A stretch of DNA of 64,000 nt from a virus: IMG/VR virus record IMGVR_UViG_3300048017_000141; one strand, given 5' to 3'. A model generated the notes under the pieces. That model made no database searches and was not told where the DNA came from. It saw only the letters and a program-made list of their open reading frames with translations. Below, piece after piece: positions 1 through 64,000 of the stretch. The position numbers and the translations under genes are program-made. Each line of letters starts with the position of its first letter. Position 1 is the first letter of the stretch.

Positions 1-1
1 C

Positions 2-1780
2 GGTAAATGGATGGATCCATCCACAACTTGGGATAGTGAAACTATAATATCAGATCTGCATAATATTACAGAGGGCTCAGGAAGAAAAGCTTGGCTATCA
101 GAGTTTATTGAAAATGCAGATAGTATATTCTCTCCGGAAAATCTTAATAAGGTACAGTCAATATACGGTACAAATGTTAGAATTGCTTTAGAGGATTCTT
201 TGTATAGAATGAAAAATGGCAAAAGTAGACCGGAAGGAACAGATAATCTTACTAATAAATGGATGAACTGGATTAATGGTTCTACTGCGGCAATAATGTT
301 TTTCAATACAAGATCAGCATTGTTACAAACAATATCAGCTATCAACTACTTGAATTGGACTGATAATAATGTATGGACGTCTGCGAAAGCATTTGCCAAT
401 CAGAAACAGTACTGGAGTGACTTCGCTATGATTATCAATTCAGATAAGATGAAGGAAAGAAGATCTGGATTAAAAGCGGATGTAACGCAAGCAGAGATTG
501 CTAATGCAGCCAATAGTACAAAGAGTAAGGCACTCGGTGTTTTATCTTATTTACAAAAGATTGGATTTACACCAACACAAGCAGCAGATAGTTTCTCTAT
601 TGCAATTGGGGGAGCAGCTTTCTATAGAAATAGAGTGAAAACATATCAATCAGAGTATACTGGCTTGGATGCTGATGGAAACTTAAAAAGAAAATATACA
701 GATAAAGAGGCTGAAGATAAAGCTTGGGTAGATTTTTCTAATATAACGGACCAATCAATGCAATCGGCCGATCCTTTATATGTTTCTAAGCAGCAAACGA
801 CCTCATTAGGGCGCCTTGTTTTGGCTTTTGGTAATACTCCAATGCAATATAATAGATTGATTAAAAAAGCAGCCCTAGACATAGCTAATAAGCGCGGAAA
901 CTTTGGAACGAATATATCAAAAATAATTTATTATGGAGCTTTGCAAAACTTTATATTCTCAGCATTACAAGCGGCATTATTCTTACCATTCGAAGATGAA
1001 AAAGATGAAGAAGAATTAGCAGCGATGTCTAAAGAAGATAGAAAAGCGTATGAGAAGTTGATCAAAAAGCAGAATGATAAAACAATAGGTATTGCAAATG
1101 GTATGGTTGATACCGTATTAAGAGGTTCTGGTATTACTGGAGCGCTTATATCAACAATAAAAAATACCATAATAGAATACAATAAGCAAGAGGAAAGAGA
1201 AATGTTTGCCGATCATGCGCAGACTTTGTTAACCGCATCCGGTATATCTCCATCAATAAGCTCAAAAGCTAGAAAAGTGTACGGTATTATTCGAATGAAT
1301 AAATTTGAGAAGGACGTAATAGCCGAAAGAGGGTGGGAAGTTACAAGAGACGGAAGATTGAACCTTAGTCCTAATTACAATATCGCTGGTAATGCTGTTG
1401 TTGCTACAACCAATATACCCTTAGACAGGTTAGTTGAAAAAGTCAACAACGTTGCTGAAGCGCTAGATTCTAGAAACAATAAAATTCAGAGAATAGCTTT
1501 ATCTTTAGGATGGAAGCCGTGGGAATTAAATGTTAAGAATGAAGAAAGCGAGCAAATAAAAGCAAAAGCAAAAGAAGTAAGAAAGAAAGAAGGCGTTGAA
1601 AAATCTATACAAACCAGAGCTGATAAGAAAGAAGCTGAAGAAGCTGCTTATAAAGCAATGTCTCCACAAGAGAAAATGGTTTACCGTAGACAAAAAAGCG
1701 AAAAGCAACTGCAAAAAAGAAAAGAAAAAGCACAACGCAAATTGCAAGAAATACGCAAGAAAAGGAAAATGGGAGAATAA
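2..1780 (+). CDS. C-terminal part of a large virion-associated (polyvalent-type) protein, 5' truncated by the window edge
   Basis: The frame is open from base 2, and the ATG at 11 is only the first Met in the track. The tail is very basic and Lys/Glu-rich. It is on the same strand as the giant ORF that runs off the 3' window edge. Confidence 0.6.
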   Translation, partial: GKWMDPSTTWDSETIISDLHNITEGSGRKAWLSEFIENADSIFSPENLNKVQSIYGTNVRIALEDSLYRMKNGKSRPEGTDNLTNKWMNWINGSTAAIMFFNTRSALLQTISAINYLNWTDNNVWTSAKAFANQKQYWSDFAMIINSDKMKERRSGLKADVTQAEIANAANSTKSKALGVLSYLQKIGFTPTQAADSFSIAIGGAAFYRNRVKTYQSEYTGLDADGNLKRKYTDKEAEDKAWVDFSNITDQSMQSADPLYVSKQQTTSLGRLVLAFGNTPMQYNRLIKKAALDIANKRGNFGTNISKIIYYGALQNFIFSALQAALFLPFEDEKDEEELAAMSKEDRKAYEKLIKKQNDKTIGIANGMVDTVLRGSGITGALISTIKNTIIEYNKQEEREMFADHAQTLLTASGISPSISSKARKVYGIIRMNKFEKDVIAERGWEVTRDGRLNLSPNYNIAGNAVVATTNIPLDRLVEKVNNVAEALDSRNNKIQRIALSLGWKPWELNVKNEESEQIKAKAKEVRKKEGVEKSIQTRADKKEAEEAAYKAMSPQEKMVYRRQKSEKQLQKRKEKAQRKLQEIRKKRKMGE

Positions 1781-1833
1781 AGGGAACAAATAAAAAATAG
1801 GCACCATACCTAATAAGTTCCAATAATAAGAAT

Positions 1834-1870
1834 AGGGGACCACAATTAAGTGAATCCCCTTTCTTTATTT
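1834..1870. terminator. Bidirectional stem-loop at the convergence of the plus and minus arms
   Basis: AGGGGA (1834-1839) pairs with TCCCCT (1855-1860), with an inner CAC/GTG pair. It is followed by TTCTTTATTT on the plus strand and by an AT/T-rich run on the minus strand. It lies between the stops of 2..1780(+) and nrdA(-). Confidence 0.6.
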
Positions 1871-7937: not shown

Positions 7938-7938
7938 A

Positions 7939-36729: not shown

Positions 36730-36946
36730 CATTCGAAAAATAAGTATTGGGTCAGATTATAAAAATGACGCAATGCACTATTCTATACATCAAGAAGTAT
36801 ATGGGGGTCATAAGATTTCCCATATACTATTTGAAGAAGAAGACGGGTCATATAATATATTTATAAAAAAAGGAGATGAGGTAATGCCGTGGAAGAAATT
36901 CAATAACACAATGGCAATAGCTATCGAATATGATTTAGAATATTAA
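36710..36946 (+). CDS. Hypothetical protein
   Basis: 78-aa ORF. Confidence 0.5.
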   Translation: MMSQAYNIRKISIGSDYKNDAMHYSIHQEVYGGHKISHILFEEEDGSYNIFIKKGDEVMPWKKFNNTMAIAIEYDLEY

Positions 36947-48379: not shown

Positions 48380-51300
48380 ATGGCAGAAGTTAAAAATAGT
48401 TTTCTAAAGTCTAGAATGAATCAAGACTTAGATGATCGACTTATCCCAAATGGAGAGTATAGATACGCTAGTAACATTTCCGTAGGTAAATCCGAGGCGG
48501 ATGATATTGGCGCATTGGAAAATGTTTTAGGTAATGAAAAATTACCTTTAACTGTTTATAGTAGTGAGAGTGGTATAGAATGTATTGGTAGTTTTATGGA
48601 CAATCAAAACAATAGGATATATCAATTTCTAACTGATTATGAAGATACAGGTGATTCAGAACCTACTGATGCTAATTTTATGCAAATAACCGTATACGAT
48701 TTAGGTTCTACTTTATCTTATAGCGTATTAGTAAGCGGTGTATTTTTAAATTTTGCAAAAAACAAGGAATTCAAAATAACAGGAGTAAATCTTATAGAAG
48801 GATTATTGTTCTGGACTGATAATAGAAACCAGCCGCGAAAAATCAATATTCAAAGAGCATTAGATAATCCAAATTATTATACAAACGAAACTCAAATATC
48901 TGTAGCTAAGTATTCGCCAGTTGACCCTATATCCTTATACAGAAAAATAGAAGGGACAGTTGATACAGTTACTTCTACTACTGAAATAGTTTTAGCTGAC
49001 GCAACCGGAATTACAGCGGGTATGACAGTTGTCTCAAATACAATAGCTGGATCAGAATACATACTAGTTATAAGTGTTGATGTAAACACGGTTTACTTAT
49101 ACAGCGCTCCTTCAACCGCAATTATAGCTGGTGATGTTTTAACATTCTTAGGTTCAACCATGAGTGATAAGTCAAATGACATTAACTGGCCGGGTGATCC
49201 AAACTTTCTAGAAGACAAGTATGTAAGATTTAGCTATCGATTTAGATACGACGATAACGAGTACTCATTAATGGCGCCGTTTACACAGATCGCATATATA
49301 CCTAAGCAAAAAGGTTTTTTTATTGATGGCAATGAAACGGATGCTTATAGAAGTACAATCATTAATTGGTTTGAGAATAACATTAATAACATCGAGTTAT
49401 TAGTGCCTTTACCAGATAGTGCAAATAATATAGCTAATTCTTACAAAATAACAGAATTAGACGTATTGTATAAAGAATCAGATTCTACAGCTGTAAAGGT
49501 GTTAGAAACGATCCCAGTGCAATCTATAGCAGCTAAGTCTGGTGTATCAAATGTATTTATACAACCATACCAATCTCAAAAGCCATATAAGACTCTTTCA
49601 GAAGATCAAACTGTACGAGTATATGATAGAGTTCCAGTTAGAGCAAAAGCTCAAGAGACAGCTGGTAATAGAATAATTTACGGTAACTACTTTGATAAGT
49701 ATACTCCACCGTCAACAATAAATTATAATACAACAATACAACCAAAGTCTGATATAAATACAAATTTTATTGAGTATCCAAATCATACGCTAAAACAAAA
49801 TAGAAATTACCAAGTAGGTTTTGTATTGTCCGATAAATTTGGAAGACAATCTCCTGTTATATTATCTACTGTTGATGATTTAACTGTAACTTCCGGAGAC
49901 ACAAGCTTCGGTGGTTCAACTGTATATTCAAAATACGATATATATGAAGAGACCGTTAGAAGTTGGTTTGGTAATGCCTTAATACTAATAGTGAACAGCC
50001 CAATCACTTCCGAGAAAGATTTATCAGCTGGTACACCGGGATTATATGCAACCCCCACTAATAGTTTAGGTTTTGTAATATCGGAAGGATATATAAGCGG
50101 GAACGAATACACATTCACAATTGATGAGGATTATATAGGCACTGACTTTAAACCAGAAGTTGGTGATTGGATGAGAGGATCGCTGACAGACTATGTTGAA
50201 GTAACTGATGTACAACCTGGAGGATTCTTAGGACAATGGATTGTTACCACTACAGGTCCAGTGAATTTTATATATGAATATCAAGACTTAGGCGTTGGTG
50301 TTCCTGATACAAAATTTGCTTATACAATAAATCCGATTGGATGGTATTCTTACAAAGTGGTTGTTAGACAACAACAACAAGATTATTATAATGTATACCT
50401 ACCAGGTATGCTTAACGGATACCCTGTTGCGCAAACTTACGGGTCACAAGTTTCCTATTCAGGCGGGGTCGCTTCGTTGGAAAACGGAATAAATACCACT
50501 AGTTTTCCAGTAGGAGAAACAAATAAAACGGCTCACGTTGTTTTAATAAACGACAATATAAATAAAGTACCTAGAGATTTATCTGAAGTAGGCCCTGATC
50601 AAAAGCAATATAGAAGTAGCGTGCAATTGTACGGCCGAGTAGAGAATGTAGCTGATACAAGCATTACTATAACCGGGCATACACCTAGTTTTAGTTCTAT
50701 AACCAACACAATAACTTATGATGCTGGCGACCCTGACTATGCCCTTGTAAAACCCGGAGACGGAATCCAATGCGCGCAAGCCACTACCACTCTATGGTAT
50801 GCAAATACAGTTGTTGTATCAAATGAAGTTGTTGGAACAGTTGGAACAATAACCTTTGAGCCGGCTAATCCAGTATTAGGATCAACACCTGGTCCTGCTT
50901 ATGTGACATTCCCAATAACTAGAGCGGAAAATAAACAATATTATCCGACTAGAAAAGCTGACACAGTTACATCGATAGCATCGGCTAATGAGTTTAATTT
51001 TTTAAGCAATACAGTTGACAATATAAGAGGAACATCTGGGCTTAATTTTTATCAATTGCAGAATAAACCTTTAATAGGTAGAATATCGACAGTAGATAGA
51101 ATAGGTACGGTAGCAGAAGATATGATACCTTTCTTAAGTATATACGAAACAGCTGCGGATGAATCTTTATTAGATTTATTTTGGGAGACTTCAACTACTG
51201 GCCTTATATCTGATTTGAATGCGGATGTTAGTACAGGATATGATGGTCCTATTGGGTTTACAACAATAAATTACGATCATAGTGAATCATTGCCTGGTGT

Positions 51301-53341: not shown

Positions 53342-54865
53342 ATGGCAGCAATATTAGAAGTAAAATATTTTAACTCTTTCTGGTTAAAGAAGATGGATAC
53401 AATTGTTGAGGTAGAAAACACAACAGGCATCTTAGATGGAGCTGTCAGTACTGCAACAATAAATTTAACTGAAAATAACTTAAATATAGGAGTAGGGCAA
53501 ACGGTTTCTTGGATAGGAGCCGTTGAGCCTTATCCGGTAGTTTATAAGAAAATAAGTGATTTATCATTTGAATTAAGTGAAGCGGTTTCAATACCAGATG
53601 CAACAGAATTAACATTTGGACCAATAACGGATTTCACTTATATACCTTCCGCTTATGAAGAATCAGCATCGGATTGGTATGTTGAAGAAACAAGAATAAG
53701 AGGTGGTTATAATAATACTAATGTAGACTTAGGCGTTAAAGCTTATATAGTTGAAGATGATATTAATCAACAACATTTACAAAGTGGGCTTATATACTCA
53801 GGTATATTTAATTCAAGAACTGGTATTAACAAAACAAATGAGTTTTCAACTGGTGAAGAAATAACTAGAAGTGTTGATCCTTACAATGGATCTATACAGA
53901 AGCTGTTTTCAGAAGATACAAATTTAACTATATTCCAGGAATTTAAAGTCAGTCGAGCATTGATAGATAAAGACGCTATATATTCTGCAGACGGACAGCC
54001 AATGACAACCTCAGGAGCGCAAGTAATAGGCCAGATTCAATCGTACGCTGGTAACTATGGTATTGCTACTAATCCTGAAAGTTTTGCTGTGTATGGCTAT
54101 CGAAAATACTTTGTGGATAGAAATAGAAATGTTGTATTAAGGCTTTCTCAAGACGGAATAAGTGAAATATCTGAATACGGAATGGGCGATTTCTTTAGAG
54201 ACAGTTTATCCGAAGCAGGGAATGATGGTCTTATACTTGGTATGTGGGACATGCATAATAAGGAATATGTTGTTTCTATACAGCAAACTAATGGCACATA
54301 TAATACTTTAGCGTTTGACGAAGATGTATCTGGATGGACAAGTTTCTTCTCTTTTAAACCTAATTGGGGTGATAGTCTTAGAAATAATTTTTACACATTT
54401 AAAGACGGTAATATATACGTTCACTATTCAACTAATGTTAATTACTCAAACTTCTATGGTGTAGATAATCCTTCAGAGGTGAAGGTTGTATTCAATCCAG
54501 AAGTATCAACAATAAAAACATTCAAAACACTTAATTACGAGGGTAGGCTAGGATGGGAAGCGGTTTCGTTTTATACTGACACAGACTTGTCATCGCCTAT
54601 AGCTCCTTCGGTTAATTTATATACATTAGCGGATGTAGAGCAGCAATTGTTCACAAATACATTCAAGAAAAAGGAAAATAAATTCTTTGCTAATTTAATA
54701 AATATAACTCCGTCATCTAGTGGTGAAGTAGTTTGGGGTAATTCAATGACTGGTGTTAAAGGAGCCTATGCTACGGTAATTATGAGCTATTCGAATACAG
54801 TTAGTCCTGGGCGAAAAGCTGAGTTATTTGCAGTATCATCTGAATACATGGATTCATCATATTAA
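53342..54865 (+). CDS. Virion structural protein (putative)
   Basis: 507-aa ORF. Confidence 0.6.
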   Translation: MAAILEVKYFNSFWLKKMDTIVEVENTTGILDGAVSTATINLTENNLNIGVGQTVSWIGAVEPYPVVYKKISDLSFELSEAVSIPDATELTFGPITDFTYIPSAYEESASDWYVEETRIRGGYNNTNVDLGVKAYIVEDDINQQHLQSGLIYSGIFNSRTGINKTNEFSTGEEITRSVDPYNGSIQKLFSEDTNLTIFQEFKVSRALIDKDAIYSADGQPMTTSGAQVIGQIQSYAGNYGIATNPESFAVYGYRKYFVDRNRNVVLRLSQDGISEISEYGMGDFFRDSLSEAGNDGLILGMWDMHNKEYVVSIQQTNGTYNTLAFDEDVSGWTSFFSFKPNWGDSLRNNFYTFKDGNIYVHYSTNVNYSNFYGVDNPSEVKVVFNPEVSTIKTFKTLNYEGRLGWEAVSFYTDTDLSSPIAPSVNLYTLADVEQQLFTNTFKKKENKFFANLINITPSSSGEVVWGNSMTGVKGAYATVIMSYSNTVSPGRKAELFAVSSEYMDSSY

Positions 54866-54876
54866 AATACAATTAA

Positions 54877-55347
54877 ATGAAAAACAAAGTTAGTACTATT
54901 AGCGAAAGAAGTTTAGCGGTACAAGACTATATTGCTAAGGTTGAAAACTTAGAACAGTCTATGCTGAATTTAGAAGGTGAGAATATTGCAAAAGGCAATA
55001 CAGATTTATTTCCTCTAAAACATTCATTCTCTCATGGCGTTTACATAAGAGAAATGTTTATGCAAGCAGATAGTGTTGTTATTGGAAAACTGCACAAATT
55101 CTCGCATACATGGTTTTTGCTACAAGGAAAACTATTCATATCCACAGAAGAAGGGGTTAACCATTATGTTGCCCCTTGTTATGTGAATGCTCCGGCTGGA
55201 ACAAAAAGAATTATATATGCGGCTGAAGATTCTATATTTGTGAATGTACATCCTAATCCCGACAATATAACGGACATAGATGAATTAGAGGATAGACTAG
55301 CGTGTGTATCTTATAAACAATACGAGCAATTTAAACAATTAAAATAA
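54877..55347 (+). CDS. Cupin-like small beta-barrel protein (tentative)
   Basis: The segment HKFSHTWFLLQGKL...APAGTKRIIYA resembles cupin motifs. Confidence 0.35.
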   Translation: MKNKVSTISERSLAVQDYIAKVENLEQSMLNLEGENIAKGNTDLFPLKHSFSHGVYIREMFMQADSVVIGKLHKFSHTWFLLQGKLFISTEEGVNHYVAPCYVNAPAGTKRIIYAAEDSIFVNVHPNPDNITDIDELEDRLACVSYKQYEQFKQLK

Positions 55348-55353
55348 TAATAT

Positions 55354-56082
55354 ATGAGTATGGTAGTTGTCGGTGCTATTGGAGCTGGAAGTTCCCTTAT
55401 CACCGGATTAATAGGAATGGGTAGCGCCAAAAAAAGACAAAGAGCCGCTGCTGAAGAAAAAGCCAGACTTAACGCTGAGTTAAATAGATTAGAGAATAGC
55501 CGACAAGCTATTATAAATCCATACGCAGACGTTAAAGATATGAGTGGTCTTATAAAAGATACATCTGGTAATTTGTCAAATGCTTATGCTAATTTAGGGG
55601 TAGCTACAAACGCAGCTAAATTCGAAGCGGAACAAATAGATGTATCATTAGCTAACACATTGGATACTCTTAGAGAAACTGGAGCTGGAGCAGGAGGAGC
55701 AACGGCATTAGCTCAAGCAGCATTAAAAGCTAAGCAAGGAATCTCATCAAATATTGAACAACAAGAAGCTCAAAATGAAAAGTTAAAAGCTCAAGGAGAA
55801 ATTCAATTGCAAGAAGCAAAAATGGCTGAGCAACAAAGAATTCAGACTGCTCAATTATCCGAGGCGCAACGTGTACAAACAGCAGAAGCTCAAGGAAAGT
55901 CATTTATGTTTAATGCACGAGAAGATCGCGAAACAGCTAAGTTAGATAGAACAGCAGGTTTAGCAACAAATGCAGCGGCTTCAGAAGCTCAAGCGGCGTC
56001 AGACTTCACTGGAGCATTAACAGGAGCAATCGGAGGTATAACATCAAGCATAGCTAGTATCGCTAGCGCAAAAAAAGATTAA
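55354..56082 (+). CDS. Internal virion protein candidate
   Basis: N-terminal hydrophobic Gly-rich segment followed by an Ala/Gln-rich coiled region. Confidence 0.5.
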   Translation: MSMVVVGAIGAGSSLITGLIGMGSAKKRQRAAAEEKARLNAELNRLENSRQAIINPYADVKDMSGLIKDTSGNLSNAYANLGVATNAAKFEAEQIDVSLANTLDTLRETGAGAGGATALAQAALKAKQGISSNIEQQEAQNEKLKAQGEIQLQEAKMAEQQRIQTAQLSEAQRVQTAEAQGKSFMFNAREDRETAKLDRTAGLATNAAASEAQAASDFTGALTGAIGGITSSIASIASAKKD

Positions 56083-56085
56083 TAA

Positions 56086-57483
56086 ATGGGAGCATATTCA
56101 AATCCACAAGCGGTTATAGACAACCAATCAGGACAATATATAAGAGAATTACAAAAGAATATAGTTGGTACTGTAGAAAGCCTAGGTGCTTCTTATACGG
56201 CTAAGGTAGAAAAACGTAATGCTGAATTCAAAGCCACTCAAATGAAAGTAGGTGAAGAAGAAAGCGCAATGTACCGCAATTTAGCATCTGTACAACAAAC
56301 TAATCCAACAGTTAACTTTGAGGAGTTGTATAGACCTATGATAAAAGAGTATGCTACTCTTAGAACAAGTATATTAAATGGTACCAGTCAAGATCCATCT
56401 GCAGACAGAATGAAAGCTGATAAGATATTTGCTAGCGTTAGCACTATAAAGAATTCATTAGTTGATTTGAGTGCGGAAGGATTTGTTGAAAAATACGATA
56501 AAGCCGGAGGAGCTAATGGATATGCAATAGGGGAGAATGATCAAAAAGTAATGGATAGTATGTTAATCTTCCATGGTAAGTTGCCCGGTGTTAAAAAAGG
56601 CAGATTTGTTGATAACGATCCAACCAATTTTGTTTGGGATGTGTATGATAAGGGTGGTCAATTAATTCAAACATTGTCGGCTGAGCAGTTAAAGAATACC
56701 TCACAAGGTAAAGGTTTGCTAAAAGTTATACCTGATGGCGAAAAAGCAATCACTAATATAAAGGATACAGCTACAAACATATTTGAGACTAAAGATGGTA
56801 TTGCAACCGGTAAAATAAAACCTGAGTTTTTAGATCCTACCCCATTCGATAAAGAATTGCCAGGTAAAAAGACAATAGTACAAGGAGGCGTTGAATACGA
56901 ACAAAAATCATATATGCCAAGTGCTAAGGTGGACATTGAAAAAATGAAAGCGGATTTAAACCTAAATACTCTATTAGACGCTAAGTCGGAAGGATTTATT
57001 AAGGCGAGCGCAAGTGGTATTGATGCAGTATTATTTAACAATACGTACTTTAAGAACATGCCCGGTTTTCAACTCTTAGATGCGGATGAGCCATTATCTC
57101 CTGAAGCAGCTGCTAAATTTAAAGAAAACTTTAAAACATTTTATTTTGATAGTTTGCCAAAGGATCAACCATTAGAAGGAGCGGAAAAATCGCAGATAAT
57201 TGAGAAACCTGCGCCTAAGCAAGCAACTAAAAAGCCTAAATTAACAACAAAACCTAAAAAAGAGCCCAGCACTGTTGAAAAGTCTGATGAAAGAATAGAT
57301 AGAGTTTTAGGTAACAATGTTACAGGAGAAGCAATCGGCCCATCAGGGAACAGGTTTAAGAAAAGCAAAAACGGAAGTTGGTATAAGGTAGATGAGGATG
57401 AAAATCAGATAAGTGAACCTTTGACTAGAGAACAAGTTGCCTCTAAGTTAGGCTACAAACCTCTATTAAAAAACAAACAATAA
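56086..57483 (+). CDS. Hypothetical virion protein
   Basis: 465-aa ORF. Confidence 0.55.
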   Translation: MGAYSNPQAVIDNQSGQYIRELQKNIVGTVESLGASYTAKVEKRNAEFKATQMKVGEEESAMYRNLASVQQTNPTVNFEELYRPMIKEYATLRTSILNGTSQDPSADRMKADKIFASVSTIKNSLVDLSAEGFVEKYDKAGGANGYAIGENDQKVMDSMLIFHGKLPGVKKGRFVDNDPTNFVWDVYDKGGQLIQTLSAEQLKNTSQGKGLLKVIPDGEKAITNIKDTATNIFETKDGIATGKIKPEFLDPTPFDKELPGKKTIVQGGVEYEQKSYMPSAKVDIEKMKADLNLNTLLDAKSEGFIKASASGIDAVLFNNTYFKNMPGFQLLDADEPLSPEAAAKFKENFKTFYFDSLPKDQPLEGAEKSQIIEKPAPKQATKKPKLTTKPKKEPSTVEKSDERIDRVLGNNVTGEAIGPSGNRFKKSKNGSWYKVDEDENQISEPLTREQVASKLGYKPLLKNKQ

Positions 57484-57501
57484 AGAAAAAATATTATACT
57501 C

Positions 57502-60500
57502 ATGGCTAATTATTTGAATAAAGAAGGAATATTATATACTCAAGAAGAAATAGAATCAGCAGCGCAGGAGAACGGCGTTGATATTGATACTATTATAGCA
57601 GACAATGAATTGACTCTTGGGGAAGATGAAAATAACACAGAATTGCCGGGAAAGAAAAAGCGTGTAACTGCAAAGAAGCCAACTGTTACACAATCAAAGC
57701 TGAAAACAAAATCGGCTTCACCTACAAAAACTACTTCTTCGGACTCAAATGGCAAAGTATACCCTTGGCAGTCTAAAGATGTAGCTGTAAATCCATCTTC
57801 TACAGATAAGTTTAAAAAACAAGCAGCAAAAGAAAAAGGTCAAGGCGTTCCTACTGTAAAGAATATAAATAAAAGTAATAAAACTACTGAAAACTTTATA
57901 GCAAATAATCCTTTTGATTTACAAAACGGATCTTTAATGACTGGTGAAGCTGGTACGAGAGATTTTTTAAATTTATTACCAGAAGAAGAGGAGAAAAAGT
58001 TTAAAGAAGCACAAGCCGCTGCTGACAGAAATGCTTTAAATAGAAGCGAGAAAGAAGCTATATCTTTTATAAATTCTAAAGTAAACGTTAAAGAAGCTCA
58101 AGATCAGCTTGATAGCGAGATAAACGACTCTGAATTTTCAGATTACTTAAGAGAAGGAGCAAAGTCTTGGTATAATGAAGCAATTGGTGGACCGATTAGT
58201 ATGGTTGGCCAATCTTTAGGGGCTAATATAGATTTGACTATATCCCCTAAAAAACCATTAGCTGAAGAGAAGAAGCAAGCTATTTCAGAATTATCTAAAA
58301 ATAGAAAAGCAGGCACAAAGATAACTAATCAGGAAATTGACAACCGAGCTAAGGAAATATTCTTAGAGAATAAAATAGTAGATCAAAAAGGAAAAGCAGC
58401 CGAGGAATATTTTGATAATCTGGATGATCCTAAGCTTCAAGAGAAGTTAAAAATAAAAGCTATAGGTGATAAACTAAACTCTTCGTCTGTAGCAAAACAA
58501 AGAACATTACTTGCTAAAACATTAAACACTCAACTTGATGATTTCTCAACTTATGCTTCATCTTTCAAATCAAGATATGATTTAGGAGAAGTAACTAATG
58601 AAGAAATAGCAGAATACAAGAGTAAAGCAGCTGATGCTACGGATGCTTATAAGCAGTTAAACTACATATATAATGATTTCCCTTCTGTGCTTGATAAGCT
58701 AGATTCTGATACAGCTAAATTAGATTACTTTAAATATAACTACGACGATGTTGAAGGCAACCTAATGAGACTTTATGGCACAACTGAAAAAATAGTTGGT
58801 GGTACAGCTAAATTCGCTGGTGAACTAGTAAGCTATTTCGAGGAGGGAGCTACCGATACCAAATTAGGTGAATTAATAAGCGCTACTGGGGGAGATATTT
58901 TATCTGATTCAGAGAAAAGAGCGAAAGAATATAAGAATATATCATTTGACAGTGTTAATAGTTTCTCAGACTTCGGTAAATATGCGGGAATATTATTTTC
59001 TGAGCAAGTGCCTATTTATGCTTCTATGTTTTTTGGTGGCGAAGCTGGCGCGTATGGTGTAGCTGCAAGTTCTGGTGGACAGAAGATACAAGAAATGGAG
59101 GATGAAATTGGTGCTAACTATGATAGAGGTACAAAATTATTAACGGCTTTTGCTTTTGCTGCTGCTGAATTTATACCTGAAAAAATTGGTACACTTAGAA
59201 TGTTTGAGAACATGAAGGGCACTATGATGGCTGTAAACCAGGAGTCTCGCCAATTATTTAAGCAGAATTTTATAGATGCATCGTTAAAATATGTGGGCAA
59301 AACCGGAGCAGAATCATTTATTGAAGGTAGTACTGAGACATTAACCGAGTTTCTTGATTTTACTATTGACGAACAATTTCTTGGTAAAAAAATATCATCT
59401 GAAGAAAAGGTCAAGAGAACCAAGAACGCTTTTATAGGTGGTGCTATAATGGCAGGTGGAATGCAGGGGCTTGGAGGTGCCTCAACATTAGTGGCAAAAG
59501 AATTAAAAAACTATGCTACCAATAATGAATTAGCTACTAGTAAAAAAATAATGGACCGTATAGACTTTTTGCAAAATGAAATTCAAAGCAATATGGGTCT
59601 TACGTCAAAAGAAACATCACAAATAAAGTCAGAGATAGACAAATTAACCGATGATTCCATAAGTATAATAGAAAACTCAAAAGATCGTGTTTACGATATG
59701 ACCAGTAAGGATATGGTTGCTGTACTAGATATAAATAGAAAACAGCAAGACATTAAACAGTCTTATGCAGAATTGATTGAATCTAACTTTTCTGACGTAA
59801 TAAAACAAGAAAAGGCCAGCGAACTTAAGGATGAGTTTAACAAACTTGAGCGTGATCGTAACTTTTTATTAACAGGTAAATATGCAGCGGCTAATAGAAT
59901 AATAGGCAACGGAATTGCTATTGATAGCAGTATCGAAAACATTAGAAAATTAGCTAATAGTCTAGGTGAGAAAGAAGTTGCTAATAAAATTGGAGGACAA
60001 AGCGGCGTGGCTGTATTTGAAGATCAATCTGAATTAAAGCAAGCTTACAAGCAATGGTTAGTAACTGAGAACAAATCTGTCGCTGATGAGGCAAACAAAT
60101 TAACATCAGAAGAAATTGACAATAAAGTTGAGGAAGCTGGTAATTCTGATGGATTTATATTACCAAATGGTCAACTTGTTATAAATAAAACTATAGCGGC
60201 TCAAACAGGAGCCATAAACGTAGCAAATCATGAGTTCCTACATAAAGTGCTTAGAAGCGCATTTTCTAATCCCGTAGAGCTTAAAAAGACTGTTGATTCA
60301 TTCATATCTACTTTAAGTGAAAAAGAAAAATCAATAGTGCAAAAAAGAATAGATGATAACTATAGATATACCATTGATGAGAGTGGCAATAAAGTAGAGA
60401 ATAATTTCAACGACTATGCAGAAGAATACTTTACGGCTTTTATTGATGCTATTGCTAAAGGAGATATTAAATGGGATAGCAACCTTAAAGAAAGTTTAAT

Positions 60501-63500
60501 AAGAATTGCTAATCCTATAGTAAAACTATTACAAAGATTAGGTTTTACAAATATTAAGTTTAATGAAGGTAGAGACTTCTACAATTTCTTAAAAGATTAT
60601 CAAACAAATATTAGCAAGGGTAGAATAACAACCAGAGCAAATAGTTTGTTAAAAGGAGAGCCCGTAAATAAAGTAACTGCATTCTCAAAGTCTATTGAAG
60701 AAAAAATGGATATTCTTGACGAGCAACTTAGTTCGGGTGAAATAGACATTGATCAATATGAGGCAAAAATGACTGCTCTAGAAAAAGAGGAAAGTCAATT
60801 GAAAAGAGCTGAATATGAGCAAAAGAAAGAAGAATCTAAAGCTGAGGTTAAAACCGAAGCGGTTCGTACTAAAAAAGAAAAGACAGAACTAAGTGATATA
60901 GCAGCTAAAGCTAAAGCTAAGTTGGATGCAATAGGTAATGATACAAAAGGGTTTAATTCTAGCAATCCAGCTATCTATGCTGAACTTGACAAGATGGTTA
61001 AAGCTAAGTCAAGAAACTGGAGAACCTCTAATGGAACTGTAATTGATTTTACTAATAAAGATAAAGGCGGACTTGATGGTTTTGACCTAGACGAAATGGC
61101 AAGTTACGTTAGAACTTCGATGATACCTTATATAGCTAAATTTGATCCAGCTAAGAACAATAGTTTATATGGATATATAAATGCTCAATATGCAAATAGA
61201 ATGCGCGCTGCGTTAAAAAGTGGTGAGGTAGCTAATGTTGTTTTCACGGAAGACGTTTCTGAAATGAAGGGATTGTCAAATGAGGAAGTTGAAACCACAA
61301 AACCATCACTACCTGAAAGAAAACGTTTTCAAAATATATTAGAATCTGGTGTATTTAGCCCTGACGTTATTGATAATATTTCCGCTAAGGTTTTGCCGAT
61401 TGTAAGAACATTGAAATCAAAAATTAATGAAAAAATATCTATAAATAAAACTACAGCTCCTATTATCGCAGAGATAAAAGATGAGATGGGTAAACAAGCA
61501 GATATTGACATTAAAAAAGCAATGGGTGGTAAGGAAAACCAGGAGTTGCAAAACTGGTTAATTACCAACAAGAAAACTATCCTAGAGAATATGACCACTA
61601 CTTGGTTAATGGGTAAGGATGGAAAAGGTGGAATGCCATTTGCTATTCAAAAAAGAATTGGCGGAAGATGGGTTAACTTTCCGGAATGGGTTGGGAAAAA
61701 AATTGATAGAGAATCAGTTTCGACAGACCTAGCTGGAAGAACGGCGGGGCACGAGATGGTAAGAAGATTACCGGATGTAGATAAGAATGTATCTACAATG
61801 GAATTTCTATCTTCAATAATTGATTTAAAAGACAGCAGTCCAATAAGAGGTAGAAAAGAAGCGTTAGCTAAGGCTCTCGCTGAAGAAATATCTTTTGATT
61901 TAATTTCAGATGATATTTCAAATGATGGACCAATAGCTAGTGCTTTACAGAAAAATCAAGAATTATTAGGTGCGGTAACAGAAAGAATACTTGCTGAGGA
62001 ATTTAATAGATTGTCAGAAAGAGGTAATGTTAAATTCTCAATATCTCAAAAACAAATTGATGACGCTATCAATTACTTAGTGAATGAAGCGGGAGGCAGT
62101 ATATATATCGCTAGAAGAAGCGGAGCAAATGCTTTTAATGATCTATATGAGATTGTTAAAGCGGGAGGAGAAGAAACTGCATTGAATGATATATTAGATA
62201 GATACCAAGATGTTTTAGAGAAAATAGCATATAATAAGCACGAAACTAACATGACTATTTTGCTTAAGACCATTTTAGGTAATGAGTTTAGCGGTAAGAA
62301 ATTAGGTGGTAATAACAACAATGTGGCTGACTTTATCATAACAAAAGGTAAGGTTGCTGACAAAAATAATCCAGCAGTAGCTAATGTTGAATTAAAGAAA
62401 AACGCTTTTGCTAGAATTACATCTGGAACTATTAATTCAATTTCCGGCAAAGATCTTACAGCAACTTCTAAAGATTCTTTTGACAAAATATCAAAAGCTT
62501 ATAATGATTTCTTAAAAGGAGAAACATTTTCCGCTATTAGAAAACTTACAGAAGGTCAAACAAAAACAGGAAACTTTAGAGTTCCCGCGGAAAACAAAAT
62601 AGCTATTACTAATATTTTAAAAGGAAAAAGAGTTGTTTTTGCAGAACCTATTCCTTTAAATATAATAAATGATATAAATTTATCTAAAAAATATTCAAAT
62701 GACTTGTTAGTACTTGGCACAACTGTAAGCGATTATTTTGGTGCTGGGTTTAAAGATAAATACGGAATAGAGGAGGATAATATAGTGGTTCCTCAAATAG
62801 AAATGAAACTTGTTAAAAATGGTGAAAATTATATTTTATACCCAAGAGTTTACTTCTATTTAGATAAAGCTACGGCCGTTAAAATGACAAAGACCATAAT
62901 AGAAGGTAACAACTTGTCTGAAATATCAAAAATGGCAGGAATTGTAATAGATAACAAAGCGGTTTTAGCTAATGCAAAATCTCAATTTAACAACTTAAAT
63001 TCTTTTAGTAAGCCGGTAGAAAATATAGATATAATATCTGATTATATTAGCAAAAATAATGCAAAAAGAATTGATGCTGAAACGTCATTTGATATATTAA
63101 ATGACACTCTTAAGGATATTGAGAACTATTGGGGTATATTACCTAACGAAGTGATTGCTTCTATGGAACGAACTGTTGATTACGCATTTGACGTGATTGA
63201 AGATCGTGAGAATGATGGTGGTCCGCTAATGGCGGCTGTAAACGATGCCCTTAATGTCGAAACTCTTAAGAATACGGAAAAGCAACTTAATACTTTTATA
63301 GATAAGAACTATAAGAACCCAGAAGGAACTGATACTGCTAAATTTAGTAAGTCATCTGGTAATTATACAACCGTTTATGCGGGTGCACCAAAGGGGAAAG
63401 ATTTAAAAGTTATTGGTCGAAAGGGTGTAAACTTTTTTGCAACTGATTTAAGAGAGGCTAAGGAATATGCTCGAATGAATGATGGGGATGTTCAGGATTT

Positions 63501-64000
63501 TGTCATAAGTAACAATGATATAGTTGACGAAGAAATAGCTATTGCGAAAATGAAAGAATTAGGATTTAATCCAGCAGACAGTGACTTTACTATAGATGAA
63601 TCATCATTTTACGAACTAATAGACCCAAGGTTTGAAAATTCTTTGGATACTAAAGATATAACCAAGCTATTTGACAATCTTAGGGAAAACGGTATTAAAG
63701 CTATAAGATATAGTGATGGGGCGCAAGTATCAGGTAATACAACAAATAGTATTGCCGTGATTGACCCGTCTGTTTTATTAAACAAGAAAAACACTAAATT
63801 TAGCAAGTCGTTAAGCTATGATTTTAATGATATGCTAGAGCGTAATACAGGAGTAGCTTCTTATGAGAAAGTGTCGGACATCGTGGCTAAAAGAACCGGT
63901 GTAAAAGCAAATAAACTTTCGTTCTTTATACCGCCATCTGCGGAAGACTTTAGAGGGTTAACAACATATATGTTCTCGGGTAAAGGTAAAGAAGGAGAAG
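57502..64000 (+). CDS. Giant multidomain (polyvalent-type) virion protein, 3' truncated by the window edge
   Basis: ATG at 57502. I saw no in-frame stop through base 64000, which gives more than 2166 codons. No other plus-strand ORF is listed in this interval and only short antisense ORFs are. HEFLH lies at 60229-60243 and an ART-like segment at about 63360-63800. Confidence 0.8.
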   Translation, partial: MANYLNKEGILYTQEEIESAAQENGVDIDTIIADNELTLGEDENNTELPGKKKRVTAKKPTVTQSKLKTKSASPTKTTSSDSNGKVYPWQSKDVAVNPSSTDKFKKQAAKEKGQGVPTVKNINKSNKTTENFIANNPFDLQNGSLMTGEAGTRDFLNLLPEEEEKKFKEAQAAADRNALNRSEKEAISFINSKVNVKEAQDQLDSEINDSEFSDYLREGAKSWYNEAIGGPISMVGQSLGANIDLTISPKKPLAEEKKQAISELSKNRKAGTKITNQEIDNRAKEIFLENKIVDQKGKAAEEYFDNLDDPKLQEKLKIKAIGDKLNSSSVAKQRTLLAKTLNTQLDDFSTYASSFKSRYDLGEVTNEEIAEYKSKAADATDAYKQLNYIYNDFPSVLDKLDSDTAKLDYFKYNYDDVEGNLMRLYGTTEKIVGGTAKFAGELVSYFEEGATDTKLGELISATGGDILSDSEKRAKEYKNISFDSVNSFSDFGKYAGILFSEQVPIYASMFFGGEAGAYGVAASSGGQKIQEMEDEIGANYDRGTKLLTAFAFAAAEFIPEKIGTLRMFENMKGTMMAVNQESRQLFKQNFIDASLKYVGKTGAESFIEGSTETLTEFLDFTIDEQFLGKKISSEEKVKRTKNAFIGGAIMAGGMQGLGGASTLVAKELKNYATNNELATSKKIMDRIDFLQNEIQSNMGLTSKETSQIKSEIDKLTDDSISIIENSKDRVYDMTSKDMVAVLDINRKQQDIKQSYAELIESNFSDVIKQEKASELKDEFNKLERDRNFLLTGKYAAANRIIGNGIAIDSSIENIRKLANSLGEKEVANKIGGQSGVAVFEDQSELKQAYKQWLVTENKSVADEANKLTSEEIDNKVEEAGNSDGFILPNGQLVINKTIAAQTGAINVANHEFLHKVLRSAFSNPVELKKTVDSFISTLSEKEKSIVQKRIDDNYRYTIDESGNKVENNFNDYAEEYFTAFIDAIAKGDIKWDSNLKESLIRIANPIVKLLQRLGFTNIKFNEGRDFYNFLKDYQTNISKGRITTRANSLLKGEPVNKVTAFSKSIEEKMDILDEQLSSGEIDIDQYEAKMTALEKEESQLKRAEYEQKKEESKAEVKTEAVRTKKEKTELSDIAAKAKAKLDAIGNDTKGFNSSNPAIYAELDKMVKAKSRNWRTSNGTVIDFTNKDKGGLDGFDLDEMASYVRTSMIPYIAKFDPAKNNSLYGYINAQYANRMRAALKSGEVANVVFTEDVSEMKGLSNEEVETTKPSLPERKRFQNILESGVFSPDVIDNISAKVLPIVRTLKSKINEKISINKTTAPIIAEIKDEMGKQADIDIKKAMGGKENQELQNWLITNKKTILENMTTTWLMGKDGKGGMPFAIQKRIGGRWVNFPEWVGKKIDRESVSTDLAGRTAGHEMVRRLPDVDKNVSTMEFLSSIIDLKDSSPIRGRKEALAKALAEEISFDLISDDISNDGPIASALQKNQELLGAVTERILAEEFNRLSERGNVKFSISQKQIDDAINYLVNEAGGSIYIARRSGANAFNDLYEIVKAGGEETALNDILDRYQDVLEKIAYNKHETNMTILLKTILGNEFSGKKLGGNNNNVADFIITKGKVADKNNPAVANVELKKNAFARITSGTINSISGKDLTATSKDSFDKISKAYNDFLKGETFSAIRKLTEGQTKTGNFRVPAENKIAITNILKGKRVVFAEPIPLNIINDINLSKKYSNDLLVLGTTVSDYFGAGFKDKYGIEEDNIVVPQIEMKLVKNGENYILYPRVYFYLDKATAVKMTKTIIEGNNLSEISKMAGIVIDNKAVLANAKSQFNNLNSFSKPVENIDIISDYISKNNAKRIDAETSFDILNDTLKDIENYWGILPNEVIASMERTVDYAFDVIEDRENDGGPLMAAVNDALNVETLKNTEKQLNTFIDKNYKNPEGTDTAKFSKSSGNYTTVYAGAPKGKDLKVIGRKGVNFFATDLREAKEYARMNDGDVQDFVISNNDIVDEEIAIAKMKELGFNPADSDFTIDESSFYELIDPRFENSLDTKDITKLFDNLRENGIKAIRYSDGAQVSGNTTNSIAVIDPSVLLNKKNTKFSKSLSYDFNDMLERNTGVASYEKVSDIVAKRTGVKANKLSFFIPPSAEDFRGLTTYMFSGKGKEGE

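What the first reader, a model, noticed from the sequence alone, without database searches (positions are those of the whole stretch)
57502..64000. Giant ORF missing from the ORF track: polyvalent-type virion protein with HExxH and ART-like regions, possibly continuous with ORF 2..1780
**Seen.**
- From the ATG at 57502 the frame stays open to the last base, more than 2166 codons.
- The track shows only short antisense ORFs in this interval.
- The protein contains NHEFLHKVL (HExxH at 60229-60243).
- Near the end it contains TVYAGAPKG...GVNFFATDLREAKEYA...DG...AIRYSDG...IAVIDPS. This resembles the YHG...G.YFT....A..Y pattern of ADP-ribosyltransferase-like domains in phage polyvalent proteins (my recollection of Iyer et al. 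2017).
- ORF 2..1780 at the other window edge is on the same strand, is open at its 5' end and ends at the convergent terminator.

**Inference.** Both pieces may belong to one protein of more than 2700 aa if the map is circular and only a short segment is missing. Such proteins are packaged and injected, and they carry anti-host effector domains.
Basis: partly seen in the sequence, partly recalled or inferred. Interest (0 to 1): 0.65.

Follow-up and report, generated by a model that had tools for sequence, protein, structure and literature searches.

The report
Giant polyvalent phage ejection protein
The two open reading frames at the window's edges are one 2,866-residue gene of a marine podovirus, and it most likely encodes a cysteine-free, multi-module protein carried in the virion and injected with the DNA, which is a known kind of phage protein in a family that has not been annotated.

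Summary
ORF 57502..64000 is open for 2,166 codons. An independent contig shows it joins ORF 2..1780 in frame across 322 missing bases. The result is one 2,866-aa, 320-kDa protein.

It belongs to an unannotated family of at least 54 giant proteins on phage contigs of about 53-65 kb. The gene is always the last of the tail operon, after a small and a medium gene.

- Conserved parts: an N-terminal region, an HExxH...E zincin-like domain, and a roughly 700-aa all-helical C-terminal core.
- The core matches the C-termini of many phage "polyvalent" giants by structure (60 hits).
- The "ART-like" stretch is a real but mobile insert. Its family is remotely related to Pfam ART-PolyVal. This copy has Ala in place of the conserved catalytic His, so it is probably inactive.
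- Weak but convergent evidence suggests a sigma-factor region-2-like domain and a PD-(D/E)xK nuclease-like module.
- The protein has no cysteines (about 23 expected). Most relatives and the N4 virion RNA polymerase also have none.

Best reading: an ejectosome-slot, virion-packaged polyvalent protein. It is a new member of a known kind. Packaging is inferred and not shown.

The parts
57502..64000 (+). Giant gene, part 1: codons 1-2166, plus the first base of codon 2167.
   Evidence: Open frame. First ATG after the in-frame stop at 57481-57483. Identical to the first 2,166 residues of the 2,866-aa product of L002.
1..1780 (+). Giant gene, part 2: codons 2275-2866 plus the stop at 1778-1780. Base 1 is the last base of codon 2274. 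The 322 nt (108 codons) between window base 64000 and base 1 are not in the window.
58054..59901 (+). Conserved N-terminal region, aa about 185-800. It has Gly/Ala-rich amphipathic segments and coiled-coil-like stretches. It is shared with the Flavobacterium phage elemo giant. Proposed membrane-interacting or ejection module (inferred).
   Evidence: tblastn 26% identity over aa 199-794, E = 3e-23. BLASTP E = 8e-44. P0052-54 match only here. No segment reaches a transmembrane-grade hydrophobicity score.
60109..60771 (+). Zincin-like metallopeptidase domain, aa about 870-1090. HEFLH at 60229-60243. Candidate third zinc ligand E975 at 60424-60426.
   Evidence: H910, E911, H914 and E975 invariant or nearly so. 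hhalign to the elemo HExxH domain: prob 95%, E = 2e-8. Top PDB profile hits are zinc endoproteases 1c7k and 4hx3 at E = 0.015. No Pfam hit.
60904..61401 (+). Helical domain resembling sigma-70 region 2, aa about 1135-1300. Motif KFDPAKNNSLYGYIN at 61138-61182. This is a hypothesis.
   Evidence: About one third of the top 50 Foldseek PDB hits are sigma factors, including 8b3z (TM 0.62-0.66, prob 0.85) and 5h6x (TM 0.54), but all have E > 0.4. Pfam Sigma70_r2 in 2 of 14 members, E = 0.03. NCBIfam sigma70-ECF 0.01, FliA 0.036, SigI 0.098. PHROGs late sigma factor 6e-4 and sigma factor 0.005. hhalign to six E. coli sigmas aligns on regions 2.1-2.2 with P = 0.002-0.0065 and prob 6-14%.
62104..62901 (+). 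Variable module with a PD-(D/E)xK-type motif, aa about 1535-1800. Key residues: E1581, D1610 (62329-62331), E1630-x-K1632 (62389-62397). This is a hypothesis.
   Evidence: These residues are invariant in the 9 homologs that carry the module; other homologs have a different module here. Pfam Mrr_cat in 2 of 9 at E = 0.033; DUF7149 at 4e-5 in one. SPARDA chains recur among the fold hits. PDB profile search found nothing.
63355..63786 (+). ART-PolyVal-like insert, aa 1952-2095. Triad positions: A1960 (63379-63381), F1978 (63433-63435), D2072 (63715-63717).
   Evidence: Present only in P0002 and P0020 (66-73% identity) and cleanly absent from the closest homologs. Exhaustive HMMER search: 136 cluster representatives, at variable positions in giants of 1,000-6,371 aa and as stand-alone proteins of 150-300 aa. 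PF18760 hits in 9 of 18 stand-alone members, best E = 1.2e-4, below the cutoff. Family triad H 82%, Y 57% or F 40%, D 92%.
63799..64000 (+). Start of the conserved C-terminal all-alpha core, aa 2100-2166. It continues through the missing 108 codons into window 1-1579.
1..1579 (+). Remainder of the C-terminal all-alpha core, aa 2275-2800. It is the most conserved part of the family and includes the most hydrophobic helix, IIYYGALQNFIF, at 923-958.
   Evidence: Present in 51 of 54 homologs at 34-74% identity, with dozens of near-invariant residues. AF2 model of the 66-71% identical proxy P0002: all helical, pLDDT mostly 70-90. No PDB fold match. Sixty BFVD matches at E <= 1e-3 to C-terminal chunks of polyvalent giants.
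1580..1777 (+). Lys/Arg/Glu-rich C-terminal tail, aa 2801-2866 (24 K+R in 66 residues).
1828..1865 (.). Terminator-like bulged hairpin between the giant gene and the convergent RNR gene.
   Evidence: -15.2 kcal/mol, z = -3.3, with a U-rich tail. Missed by the consensus scan.
55354..57483 (+). Two cysteine-free genes directly upstream (242 aa and 465 aa). They are proposed partners of the giant in an ejectosome cassette.
   Evidence: The small-medium-giant order is conserved: 318/487/2694 for P0001 and 232/517/2806 for P0038. Weak Pfam T7_gp14 hit, E = 0.023. Zero Cys in both. No PDB relatives.

Best explanation
The two edge ORFs are one late gene of a circular or circularly permuted phage genome of about 64.3 kb, probably a podovirus of marine Bacteroidota (the only cultured relatives infect Flavobacterium). 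Its 2,866-aa, 320-kDa product is a virion-packaged, host-injected polyvalent protein. It occupies the third, largest slot of a small-medium-giant ejection cassette, the slot held by T7 gp16 and by the N4 virion RNA polymerase gp50.

Proposed mechanism, all inferred:
1. The protein is packaged in the capsid. The conserved C-terminal helical core may serve this step, as the C-terminal region of N4 gp50 is required for encapsidation.
2. It is extruded at least partly unfolded through the crAss-type muzzle and across the periplasm. The absence of cysteine fits this step.
3. The Gly/Ala-rich N-terminal region engages the envelope.
4. The interior modules then act in the cytoplasm. The zincin domain may cut the polypeptide into pieces or attack host proteins. 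A sigma-region-2-like domain may bind host RNA polymerase. A PD-(D/E)xK-like module may cut nucleic acid.
5. The ART-like insert in this phage lacks the catalytic His, so it is probably a degenerate or repurposed module.

Shown here: one gene, the family, the module map, conservation of the motifs, the fold relation of the core to other polyvalent giants, and the cysteine avoidance. Inferred: packaging, injection, and every activity.
For: - One gene. Full-length homologs on 64-65 kb contigs.
- Late and structural context: terminase, portal, capsid and virion proteins, a split muzzle protein (PF25729 crAss_MUZ_C, phrog_14478) and a tail fibre lie upstream on the same strand. The synteny is conserved in near and distant relatives.
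- The only annotated relative, the >3,638-aa protein of Flavobacterium phage vB_FspP_elemoA, is labelled 'structural protein'. It shares the N-region and the zincin domain.
- Polyvalent character: the modules come and go. The ART-like insert is in 3 family members. A Zeta-toxin/AAA_33 kinase sits in the same slot in P0032. There are weak LPD13 and LPD14 hits. The ART-like module occurs in 136 clusters at variable positions. The C-core has 60 BFVD fold matches to polyvalent giants.
- Zincin signature HExxH...E is conserved, as defined in PMC5512222.
- Cysteine: 0 in 2,866 aa against about 23 expected (P about 1e-10, or 6e-5 using the structural module's rate). Also 0 in 43 of 54 homologs, in 59 of 82 other ART-module giants, in the elemo giant and in N4 gp50.
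- N4 gp50 has the same layout: a likely membrane-spanning NTD, cargo, an HExxH subdomain, and a large alpha-helical C2 with no known structural relatives (PMC13434306; PMC5512222).
- crAss001 virions carry large alpha-helical cargo proteins that are ejected partly unfolded (PMC10172136).
Against: - There is no virion proteomics for this phage. I could not find the basis of the elemo 'structural protein' label.
- No Pfam or PHROGs family matches the query itself.
- No sequence similarity to N4 gp50, and no PDB relative for the two upstream genes. The cassette analogy rests on gene order, a weak T7_gp14 hit and Cys-freeness.
- No segment reaches a transmembrane-grade hydrophobicity score.
- No zincin appears among the top 50 Foldseek PDB hits for the model of aa 850-1950. 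Model confidence is moderate (mean pLDDT 63).
- Sigma and nuclease assignments are all below significance thresholds.
Confidence: 0.7

Rival explanations
1. It is the virion RNA polymerase of the phage, like crAss-type gp66 or N4 gp50. Those genes sit in the same genomic position, and the tail here has a crAss-type muzzle.
For: The position after the muzzle and tail genes, the giant size and the Cys-free composition match vRNAP genes. I found no other RNAP candidate in the window.
Against: No RNAP family in Pfam or PHROGs. phmmer of the whole protein against all PDB sequences finds nothing. Foldseek of aa 850-1950 and of the C-terminal part returns no RNA polymerase catalytic subunit in the top 50 hits of either search. 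There is no DxDxD motif anywhere in the 2,866 aa. No signal against N4 gp50. Only aa 1-850 was not modelled, and that region is Gly/Ala-rich and coiled-coil-like.
Confidence: 0.04
2. It is a purely structural internal-core or ejection-channel protein like T7 gp16. The HExxH, ART-like and other modules would be vestigial or structural and not effectors.
For: The most conserved parts are the non-enzymatic N-region and the helical C-core. The ART-like copy has lost its His. None of the enzymatic assignments reaches curated thresholds.
Against: HExxH plus the distal Glu are invariant or nearly so across highly divergent members at 20-30% identity, which argues for selection on catalysis. The E...D...ExK residues are invariant in the nuclease-like module. 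Relatives carry a P-loop kinase above the Pfam cutoff in the variable slot. Most of the ART-module family keeps H-[Y/F]-D.
Confidence: 0.17
3. It is a late-expressed cytoplasmic multi-domain anti-defence or takeover protein that is not packaged.
For: There is no direct evidence of packaging. Polyvalent-type domains also occur in non-virion contexts such as conjugative elements (PMC5512222).
Against: The gene is the last of the tail operon in every relative examined. A protein made late and not packaged would arrive too late for takeover. The Cys-free signature shared with N4 gp50 is not expected for a purely cytoplasmic protein, given that the rest of the phage proteome has 0.8% Cys.
Confidence: 0.07
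4. The two ORFs are separate genes, or the join is an assembly artefact.
For: The window itself lacks the joining 322 nt.
Against: An independent assembly joins them in frame. More than 50 homologs from JGI, ENA, NCBI and Logan are single proteins that align across the junction. The junction falls inside the most conserved domain.
Confidence: 0.02

Closest known systems
Phage and conjugative-element polyvalent proteins (Iyer, Burroughs, Anand, de Souza, Aravind 2017, J Bacteriol; PMC5512222)
   Same: It is a giant single polypeptide that strings together unrelated modules. It has a zincin-like HExxH...E domain as a conserved hub and an ART-PolyVal-related module. It is encoded next to virion genes. 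Modules are shuffled between relatives. The C-terminal core is structurally matched to proteins annotated with PolyVal, LPD and MuF-C domains.
   Different: Almost none of it is recognised by the Pfam models derived from that work: no hit for the query and one LPD14 hit in 17 relatives. There is no MuF, ArdC-N, SNF2 or methylase domain. The word 'sigma' does not occur in that paper, so the sigma-like module, if real, is not in the catalogue. The ART-like copy lacks the His.
Coliphage N4 virion RNA polymerase gp50 (3,500 aa)
   Same: The layout is the same: an N-terminal region implicated in ejection, then internal cargo, then an HExxH subdomain, then a large all-alpha C-terminal domain without known structural relatives. 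It is the last and largest gene of a three-gene ejection cassette (gp52-gp51-gp50). It has zero cysteines.
   Different: There is no RNA polymerase module here. There is no detectable sequence similarity outside the HExxH motif itself. The HExxH domain here is about 1,000 residues from the C-core and not adjacent to it. The fold relation to N4 C2 could not be tested.
Flavobacterium phage vB_FspP_elemoA 'structural protein' QMP86594.1 (>3,638 aa; genus Elemovirus)
   Same: It is the only annotated relative. It has a homologous N-region (E = 8e-44) and a homologous zincin domain (hhalign prob 95%). It is also cut by the record's start, is Cys-free, and comes from a podovirus of about 60 kb infecting a marine or brackish Flavobacterium.
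   Different: The rest does not align by BLAST, including the C-terminal core. It carries a DUF3293 note, and that domain is absent here.
Podovirus ejectosome and cargo proteins (T7 gp14/15/16; crAss001 gp45/46 and RNAP-associated gp47/49/50)
   Same: The position after the tail or muzzle genes, the small-medium-large gene order, the alpha-helical character, and the proposed partial unfolding during ejection.
   Different: There is no sequence or fold match to T7 gp15/16 or to any solved ejection protein. No lytic transglycosylase domain was found.
Phage T4 Alt (packaged ADP-ribosyltransferase)
   Same: The concept is the same: an ART-family module delivered with the DNA to modify host proteins (PMC5512222).
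   Different: Alt is an R-S-E-type small head protein (my own recollection, not checked here). The module here belongs to the H-Y-D polyvalent clade and has Ala at the His position.

Membership tests
Polyvalent proteins (Iyer et al. 2017) | A large polypeptide combining several domains of disparate biochemical type, with the modules shuffled among relatives. | tested here: met
   At least seven separable blocks with different distributions among 54 homologs. The ART-like insert appears in 136 clusters at variable positions. A kinase module occupies the same slot in P0032.
Polyvalent proteins (Iyer et al. 2017) | Encoded by a phage or mobile element, typically next to virion or late genes. | tested here: met
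   It is the last gene of the tail operon here and in relatives.
Polyvalent proteins (Iyer et al. 2017) | Delivered into the host with the DNA (packaged in the virion). | not testable with these tools
   Only indirect evidence: the elemo annotation 'structural protein', the Cys-free composition and the synteny.
Polyvalent proteins (Iyer et al. 2017) | Detectable relationship to other recognised polyvalent proteins. | tested here: met
   Sixty BFVD fold matches at E <= 1e-3 (prob 1.00, TM up to 0.55 at 10-16% identity) to giants named PolyVal ART, LPD-containing, ART-PolyVal-like and MuF-C. The model used was the 66-71% identical proxy P0002.
Zincin-like metallopeptidase (polyvalent MPTase) | An HExxH motif on a helix. 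| tested here: met
   HEFLH at aa 910-914. H910, E911 and H914 are invariant or nearly so. The motif is predicted within helix 55-71 of the model.
Zincin-like metallopeptidase (polyvalent MPTase) | A third zinc ligand Glu on the following helix. | tested here: met
   E975 (EE.LT.F.DA) is invariant in A11 and nearly invariant in A3. It is predicted in a helix. The definition is taken from PMC5512222.
Zincin-like metallopeptidase (polyvalent MPTase) | Significant profile or fold similarity to known zincins. | tested here: inconclusive
   The top PDB profile hits are zinc endoproteases at E = 0.015, aligned through the edge strand and the motif. There is no Pfam hit, no zincin among the top 50 Foldseek hits, and N4 C1 matches only at the motif.
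ART-PolyVal (Pfam PF18760; H-Y-D clade) | A match to the family model at or above the curated cutoff (31.2 bits). | tested here: not met
   The query gets no hit even at E <= 10. Nine of 18 stand-alone relatives hit it, with best E = 1.2e-4, all below the cutoff.
ART-PolyVal (Pfam PF18760; H-Y-D clade) | The catalytic triad: His (strand 1), Tyr (strand 2), Asp (strand 5). | tested here: not met
   The query has A1960, F1978 and D2072. In the family, H is 97 of 119, Y 68 and F 48 of 119, and D 109 of 119. The definition is from PMC5512222.
ART-PolyVal (Pfam PF18760; H-Y-D clade) | The ADP-ribosyltransferase fold. | tested here: inconclusive
   The AF2 model of this part has pLDDT 24-77 because only 3 sequences were allowed in the alignment. 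The profile against PDB sequences found nothing.
Sigma-70 family, region 2 | A match to sigma region-2 models or structures at significance. | tested here: inconclusive
   All evidence is sub-threshold but convergent: Pfam E = 0.03; NCBIfam 0.01-0.1; PHROGs 6e-4 and 0.005; hhalign P = 0.002-0.0065 on regions 2.1-2.2; Foldseek 8b3z TM 0.62-0.66 with E about 2.
Sigma-70 family, region 2 | Binding to RNA polymerase core (the beta-prime clamp helices) and promoter recognition. | not testable with these tools
   No region-4-like helix-turn-helix was identified.
PD-(D/E)xK nucleases | The E...D...(D/E)xK catalytic motif on a helix, strand and strand core. | tested here: met
   E1581, D1610, E1630 and K1632 are invariant in the 9 homologs that carry the module.
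PD-(D/E)xK nucleases | Significant profile or fold similarity to known members. | tested here: inconclusive
   Mrr_cat in 2 of 9 at E = 0.033 and DUF7149 at 4e-5 in one. SPARDA chains appear among the fold hits at E about 1. The PDB profile found nothing. pLDDT is about 45 in this segment.
Virion RNA polymerases (crAss gp66-type or N4/T7-type) | A polymerase catalytic module (DxDxD double-psi barrels, or a T7-like palm). | tested here: not met
   There is no DxDxD motif. No RNAP hits in Pfam, PHROGs, PDB sequences or Foldseek. No similarity to N4 gp50.

The most novel reading that the evidence does not exclude
The conserved helical domain at aa about 1135-1300 is a true sigma-factor region-2 homologue that is carried in the virion and injected with the DNA. 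After release by the neighbouring zincin domain, it would bind the host RNA polymerase clamp. It could then redirect the polymerase to phage early promoters, as the region-2-only T4 gp55 does for late promoters (my own recollection, not checked here), or it could block host sigma factors. This would be a third way for podoviruses to start transcription on arrival, alongside a packaged RNA polymerase (N4, crAss) and a packaged ADP-ribosyltransferase (T4 Alt). It would add a domain class that the polyvalent-protein paper does not mention.
Probability: 0.2. Interest if true: 0.75.

Novelty: new member of a known kind. Interest (0 to 1): 0.42.

Why it matters
It settles an annotation problem. An ORF-track artefact hid a gene that takes up about 13% of a phage genome.

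It also places an unannotated family of at least 54 giant proteins from marine or brackish phages within the polyvalent, injected-protein class. It gives a residue-level module map that can guide experiments: the zincin triad, a degenerate ART module, a nuclease-type motif, and a possible sigma-like domain.

Two by-products may be more widely useful:
- A large helical C-terminal domain is shared by many phage polyvalent giants, and Pfam does not model it. It is a candidate packaging or ejection handle.
- Near-total avoidance of cysteine is a simple compositional signature shared with the N4 virion RNA polymerase. It could help flag ejected giant proteins in metagenomes.

Tried and rejected
- megablast of the ORF against 50,697 phage records: no match.
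- tblastn of the C-terminal piece against the same records: no match.
- Pfam and PHROGs on the whole protein, and Pfam on six separate segments at E <= 10: nothing meaningful.
- phmmer of the whole protein against PDB sequences: nothing.
- The search for homologous proteins with the ART-like module alone returned nothing. It missed two known positives, so I treated it as a false negative and replaced it with the exhaustive HMMER search.
I modelled the homolog P0002 instead.
- Foldseek of the C-core against the PDB: only generic helical membrane proteins, TM <= 0.11.
- Enlarging the sigma-like alignment to 43 sequences did not improve hhalign.
- The last large homology search, run with that alignment, gave five unannotated fragments.
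- HMMs of the C-core and the zincin region against N4 gp50: no signal.
- PDB searches with the two upstream genes and with the 1,119-aa ORF: nothing.
- Cluster look-up of the NCBI-sourced homologs gave no names.
- A literature search for the elemo phages found no paper describing the giant protein.
- The virion RNA polymerase reading, the two-gene reading and the assembly-artefact reading were rejected for the reasons given under rival explanations.

Full report
OBSERVATION. Translation from the ATG at 57502 runs open to base 64000, 2,166 codons. The ATG is the first start after an in-frame stop at 57481-57483. At the window's base composition a stop is expected in 7.6% of codons, so an open run of this length has a chance probability of about 1e-75. 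The interval otherwise holds only antisense ORFs of 65-137 aa. The giant ORF is missing from the ORF list because the lister omits ORFs that run off an end of the window (tool description). ORF 2..1780 is on the same strand, open at its 5' end, and 592 codons long. Between it and the convergent ribonucleotide reductase gene the consensus terminator scan finds nothing. A bulged hairpin at 1828-1865 does fold at -15.2 kcal/mol (z = -3.3) and has a U-rich tail.

CONTINUITY. The RNR large subunit encoded at 1886-3607 occurs identically on a 28.5-kb Logan contig. On that contig it is followed by a single 2,866-aa gene and then by the 465-aa gene that precedes the giant ORF in the window. The product equals window piece 1, plus 108 residues, plus window piece 2. 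At the DNA level, window base 64000 is L002:7997 and window base 1 is L002:7674. That leaves 322 nt missing, and the join is in frame. The genome is therefore about 64.3 kb and circular or circularly permuted. This agrees with the 64-65 kb contigs that carry full-length homologs. The protein is 320 kDa with pI 5.9.

CONTEXT. The + strand block upstream encodes GroEL and GroES homologs, large terminase, portal, capsid and virion proteins, a muzzle protein split over two ORFs (phrog_14478; Pfam crAss_MUZ_C), a tail-fibre-like protein, and then genes of 242 and 465 aa. The giant is the last gene of this block. The same small-medium-giant order recurs in a close relative (318/487/2,694 aa) and a distant one (232/517/2,806 aa). 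I found no RNA polymerase gene in the window.

FAMILY AND MODULE MAP. The large homology search found 54 proteins of 2,210-3,966 aa. None has a useful name. A BLAST map and a 33-sequence alignment divide the query into blocks with different distributions:
- The C-terminal roughly 700 aa (about 2100-2800) is present in 51 of 54 homologs.
- The HExxH region (about 870-1090) is present in about 40.
- The N-region (about 185-800) is also present in three proteins that share nothing else, and in the >3,638-aa 'structural protein' of Flavobacterium phage vB_FspP_elemoA. That is the only hit among 50,697 phage records.
- aa 1535-1800 is present in about 10 close homologs, and the others have a different module there.
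- aa 1952-2095 is present in only two homologs and is cleanly excised in the closest ones.
- Other members carry a Zeta-toxin/AAA_33 kinase just upstream of the C-core, or a small Cys-rich DUF5763 at the C-terminus.
Pfam recognises almost nothing in the family. There was one LPD14 hit in 17 members.

ZINCIN. H910, E911, H914 and E975 (in the EE.LT.F.DA motif, 61 residues downstream) are invariant or nearly so, even at 20-30% identity. This is the arrangement that Iyer et al. give for the polyvalent zincin: HExxH on one helix and Glu on the next (PMC5512222). The domain is homologous to the elemo HExxH domain (hhalign prob 95%, E = 2e-8). A profile against PDB sequences puts two zinc endoproteases first, at E = 0.015, aligned through the edge strand and the motif. 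A third metalloprotease appears at E = 0.2. There is no Pfam hit, and no zincin among the top 50 fold hits. I regard the zincin assignment as likely. It is proven only at the motif level.

ART-LIKE INSERT. A three-sequence profile was searched exhaustively against 1.84 billion representatives. It found 136 proteins. The module lies at widely varying positions in giants of 1,000-6,371 aa, and also occurs as stand-alone proteins of 150-300 aa. The family consensus is VYHGG...G..Y.S.DK.QA..YA...LYELIDPRF...kAI.F.D...NIvVF. Nine of 18 stand-alone members match Pfam ART-PolyVal over nearly the whole model, but all are below the cutoff (best E = 1.2e-4). Two match DUF3990. Iyer et al. define this ART clade by His in strand 1, Tyr in strand 2 and Asp in strand 5. 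In the family these positions are H in 82%, Y in 57% or F in 40%, and D in 92%. The query reads A1960, F1978 and D2072, and only one other representative has Ala at the His position. The structure model of this part is unreliable (pLDDT 24-77).

C-TERMINAL CORE. The 108 bridge residues are not in the window, so I modelled the equivalent part of P0002, which is 66-71% identical. The core is entirely helical, with pLDDT mostly 70-90. It has no PDB match (best E = 0.13, TM <= 0.11). It has 60 BFVD matches at E <= 1e-3. Four are close relatives. The rest, at 10-16% identity and TM 0.4-0.55, are C-terminal chunks of giants named PolyVal ADP-ribosyltransferase, large-polyvalent-protein-associated domain, ART-PolyVal-like, MuF C-terminal, N-acetyltransferase, nuclease and similar. 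This is the strongest evidence that the protein belongs with the polyvalent giants. It also identifies a shared C-terminal domain that Pfam does not model.

TWO FURTHER MODULES (HYPOTHESES). aa about 1135-1300 contains ...KFDPAKNNSLYGYIN..., with the same spacing as sigma-70 regions 2.1-2.3.
- In the fold search of the aa 850-1950 model, no hit is significant. About a third of the top 50 are sigma factors, including the SigE N-terminal domain 8b3z (TM 0.62-0.66, prob 0.85) and RpoS region 2 (TM 0.54).
- Sigma families are also the recurring weak top hits in Pfam, NCBIfam and PHROGs.
- hhalign against six E. coli sigma factors, taken from the annotated K-12 record, aligns the segment on regions 2.1-2.2 with P = 0.002. 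This falls to P = 0.0065 with a larger alignment.
- The module recurs in 11 of the 136 unrelated giants.
- The word 'sigma' does not occur in the polyvalent-protein paper.
I put the fold assignment at roughly 45%.

aa about 1535-1800 has invariant E1581, D1610 and E1630-x-K1632. It has weak Mrr_cat and DUF7149 hits, and SPARDA chains recur among the fold hits. This is a plausible PD-(D/E)xK nuclease, but it is unproven.

CYSTEINE AVOIDANCE. The protein has no cysteine. The other 43 ORFs of the window have 0.80% Cys, which gives about 23 expected and a Poisson P of 1e-10. Using only the structural genes, P is 6e-5. Cysteine is also absent from 43 of 54 homologs, from 59 of 82 other ART-module giants longer than 1,500 aa, from the elemo giant, and from the 3,500-aa N4 virion RNA polymerase. 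The 507-aa muzzle C-terminal ORF and the 242- and 465-aa genes upstream also have none. This fits passage in an unfolded state through the tail and the oxidising periplasm. That interpretation is mine.

COMPARISON WITH KNOWN SYSTEMS. [quoted passage not shown] Its C-terminal region is needed for encapsidation (PMC5512222). It follows two smaller ejection proteins in the genome. The layout here is parallel, but I found no sequence similarity. The N4 structure post-dates the PDB copy used for fold search. crAss001, which has the same muzzle type, packages several large alpha-helical cargo proteins that are thought to be extruded partly unfolded (PMC10172136). A virion RNA polymerase reading is rejected: there is no RNAP similarity in any search and no DxDxD motif.

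VERDICT. The protein is a new member of a known kind, the polyvalent virion-delivered giants, and it belongs to a family that current databases do not annotate. Packaging, injection and all enzymatic activities are inferred. The most novel reading still open is an injected sigma-like domain.

Noticed in passing
window 57502-64000 and 1-1780; also 53342-57483: The giant has zero cysteines in 2,866 aa (about 23 expected). The same holds for 43 of 54 homologs, 59 of 82 unrelated ART-module giants, the elemo giant and N4 gp50. The 507-aa muzzle C-terminal ORF and the two genes directly upstream of the giant are also Cys-free. This may be a compositional marker of ejected proteins.
   Followed up: partly
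window 48380-53290 and 53342-54865: A crAss-type muzzle protein appears split into two ORFs. Both match phrog_14478, one at the N-terminal and one at the C-terminal part, and the second carries Pfam crAss_MUZ_C. This is in a 64-kb phage whose only cultured relatives (Elemovirus) are not classified in Crassvirales. The split is conserved in the P0001 contig.
   Followed up: partly
window 31633-33195 and 36946-37557: The phage encodes GroEL (Cpn60, E = 2e-61) and GroES-like chaperonins within the late-strand block. These could be relevant to folding or refolding very large proteins.
   Followed up: no
window 56086-57504: The 465-aa gene and the giant gene are in the same reading frame. They are separated by a single TAA and 18 nt. 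The same holds in the P0038 contig but not in the P0001 contig, so this is probably coincidence.
   Followed up: partly
P0032 aa 2493-2642; P0028 and P0031 C-termini: In other family members the variable slot just before the C-terminal core holds a Zeta-toxin/AAA_33 P-loop kinase. Some members end in a small Cys-rich DUF5763, and those are the members that do contain cysteines.
   Followed up: partly
window 26924-30283: A 1,119-aa ORF at the head of the + strand block has no Pfam or PDB relative. It has only weak, partial matches to hypothetical proteins of Rhodobacter phages.
   Followed up: partly
window 63319-63801 (tool behaviour): The word-indexed homology search returned no hits for the ART-like module, although two proteins at 66-73% identity were already known from the first search. 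Negative results from that tool with short queries should not be trusted.
   Followed up: yes
window 1886-8274, minus strand: Convergent with the giant gene is a nucleotide-metabolism and replication block: RNR large and small subunits, DUF1064, MazG-like, and a primase-helicase at 8274-10043. The block is conserved in the elemo phage and in the family's contigs.
   Followed up: no
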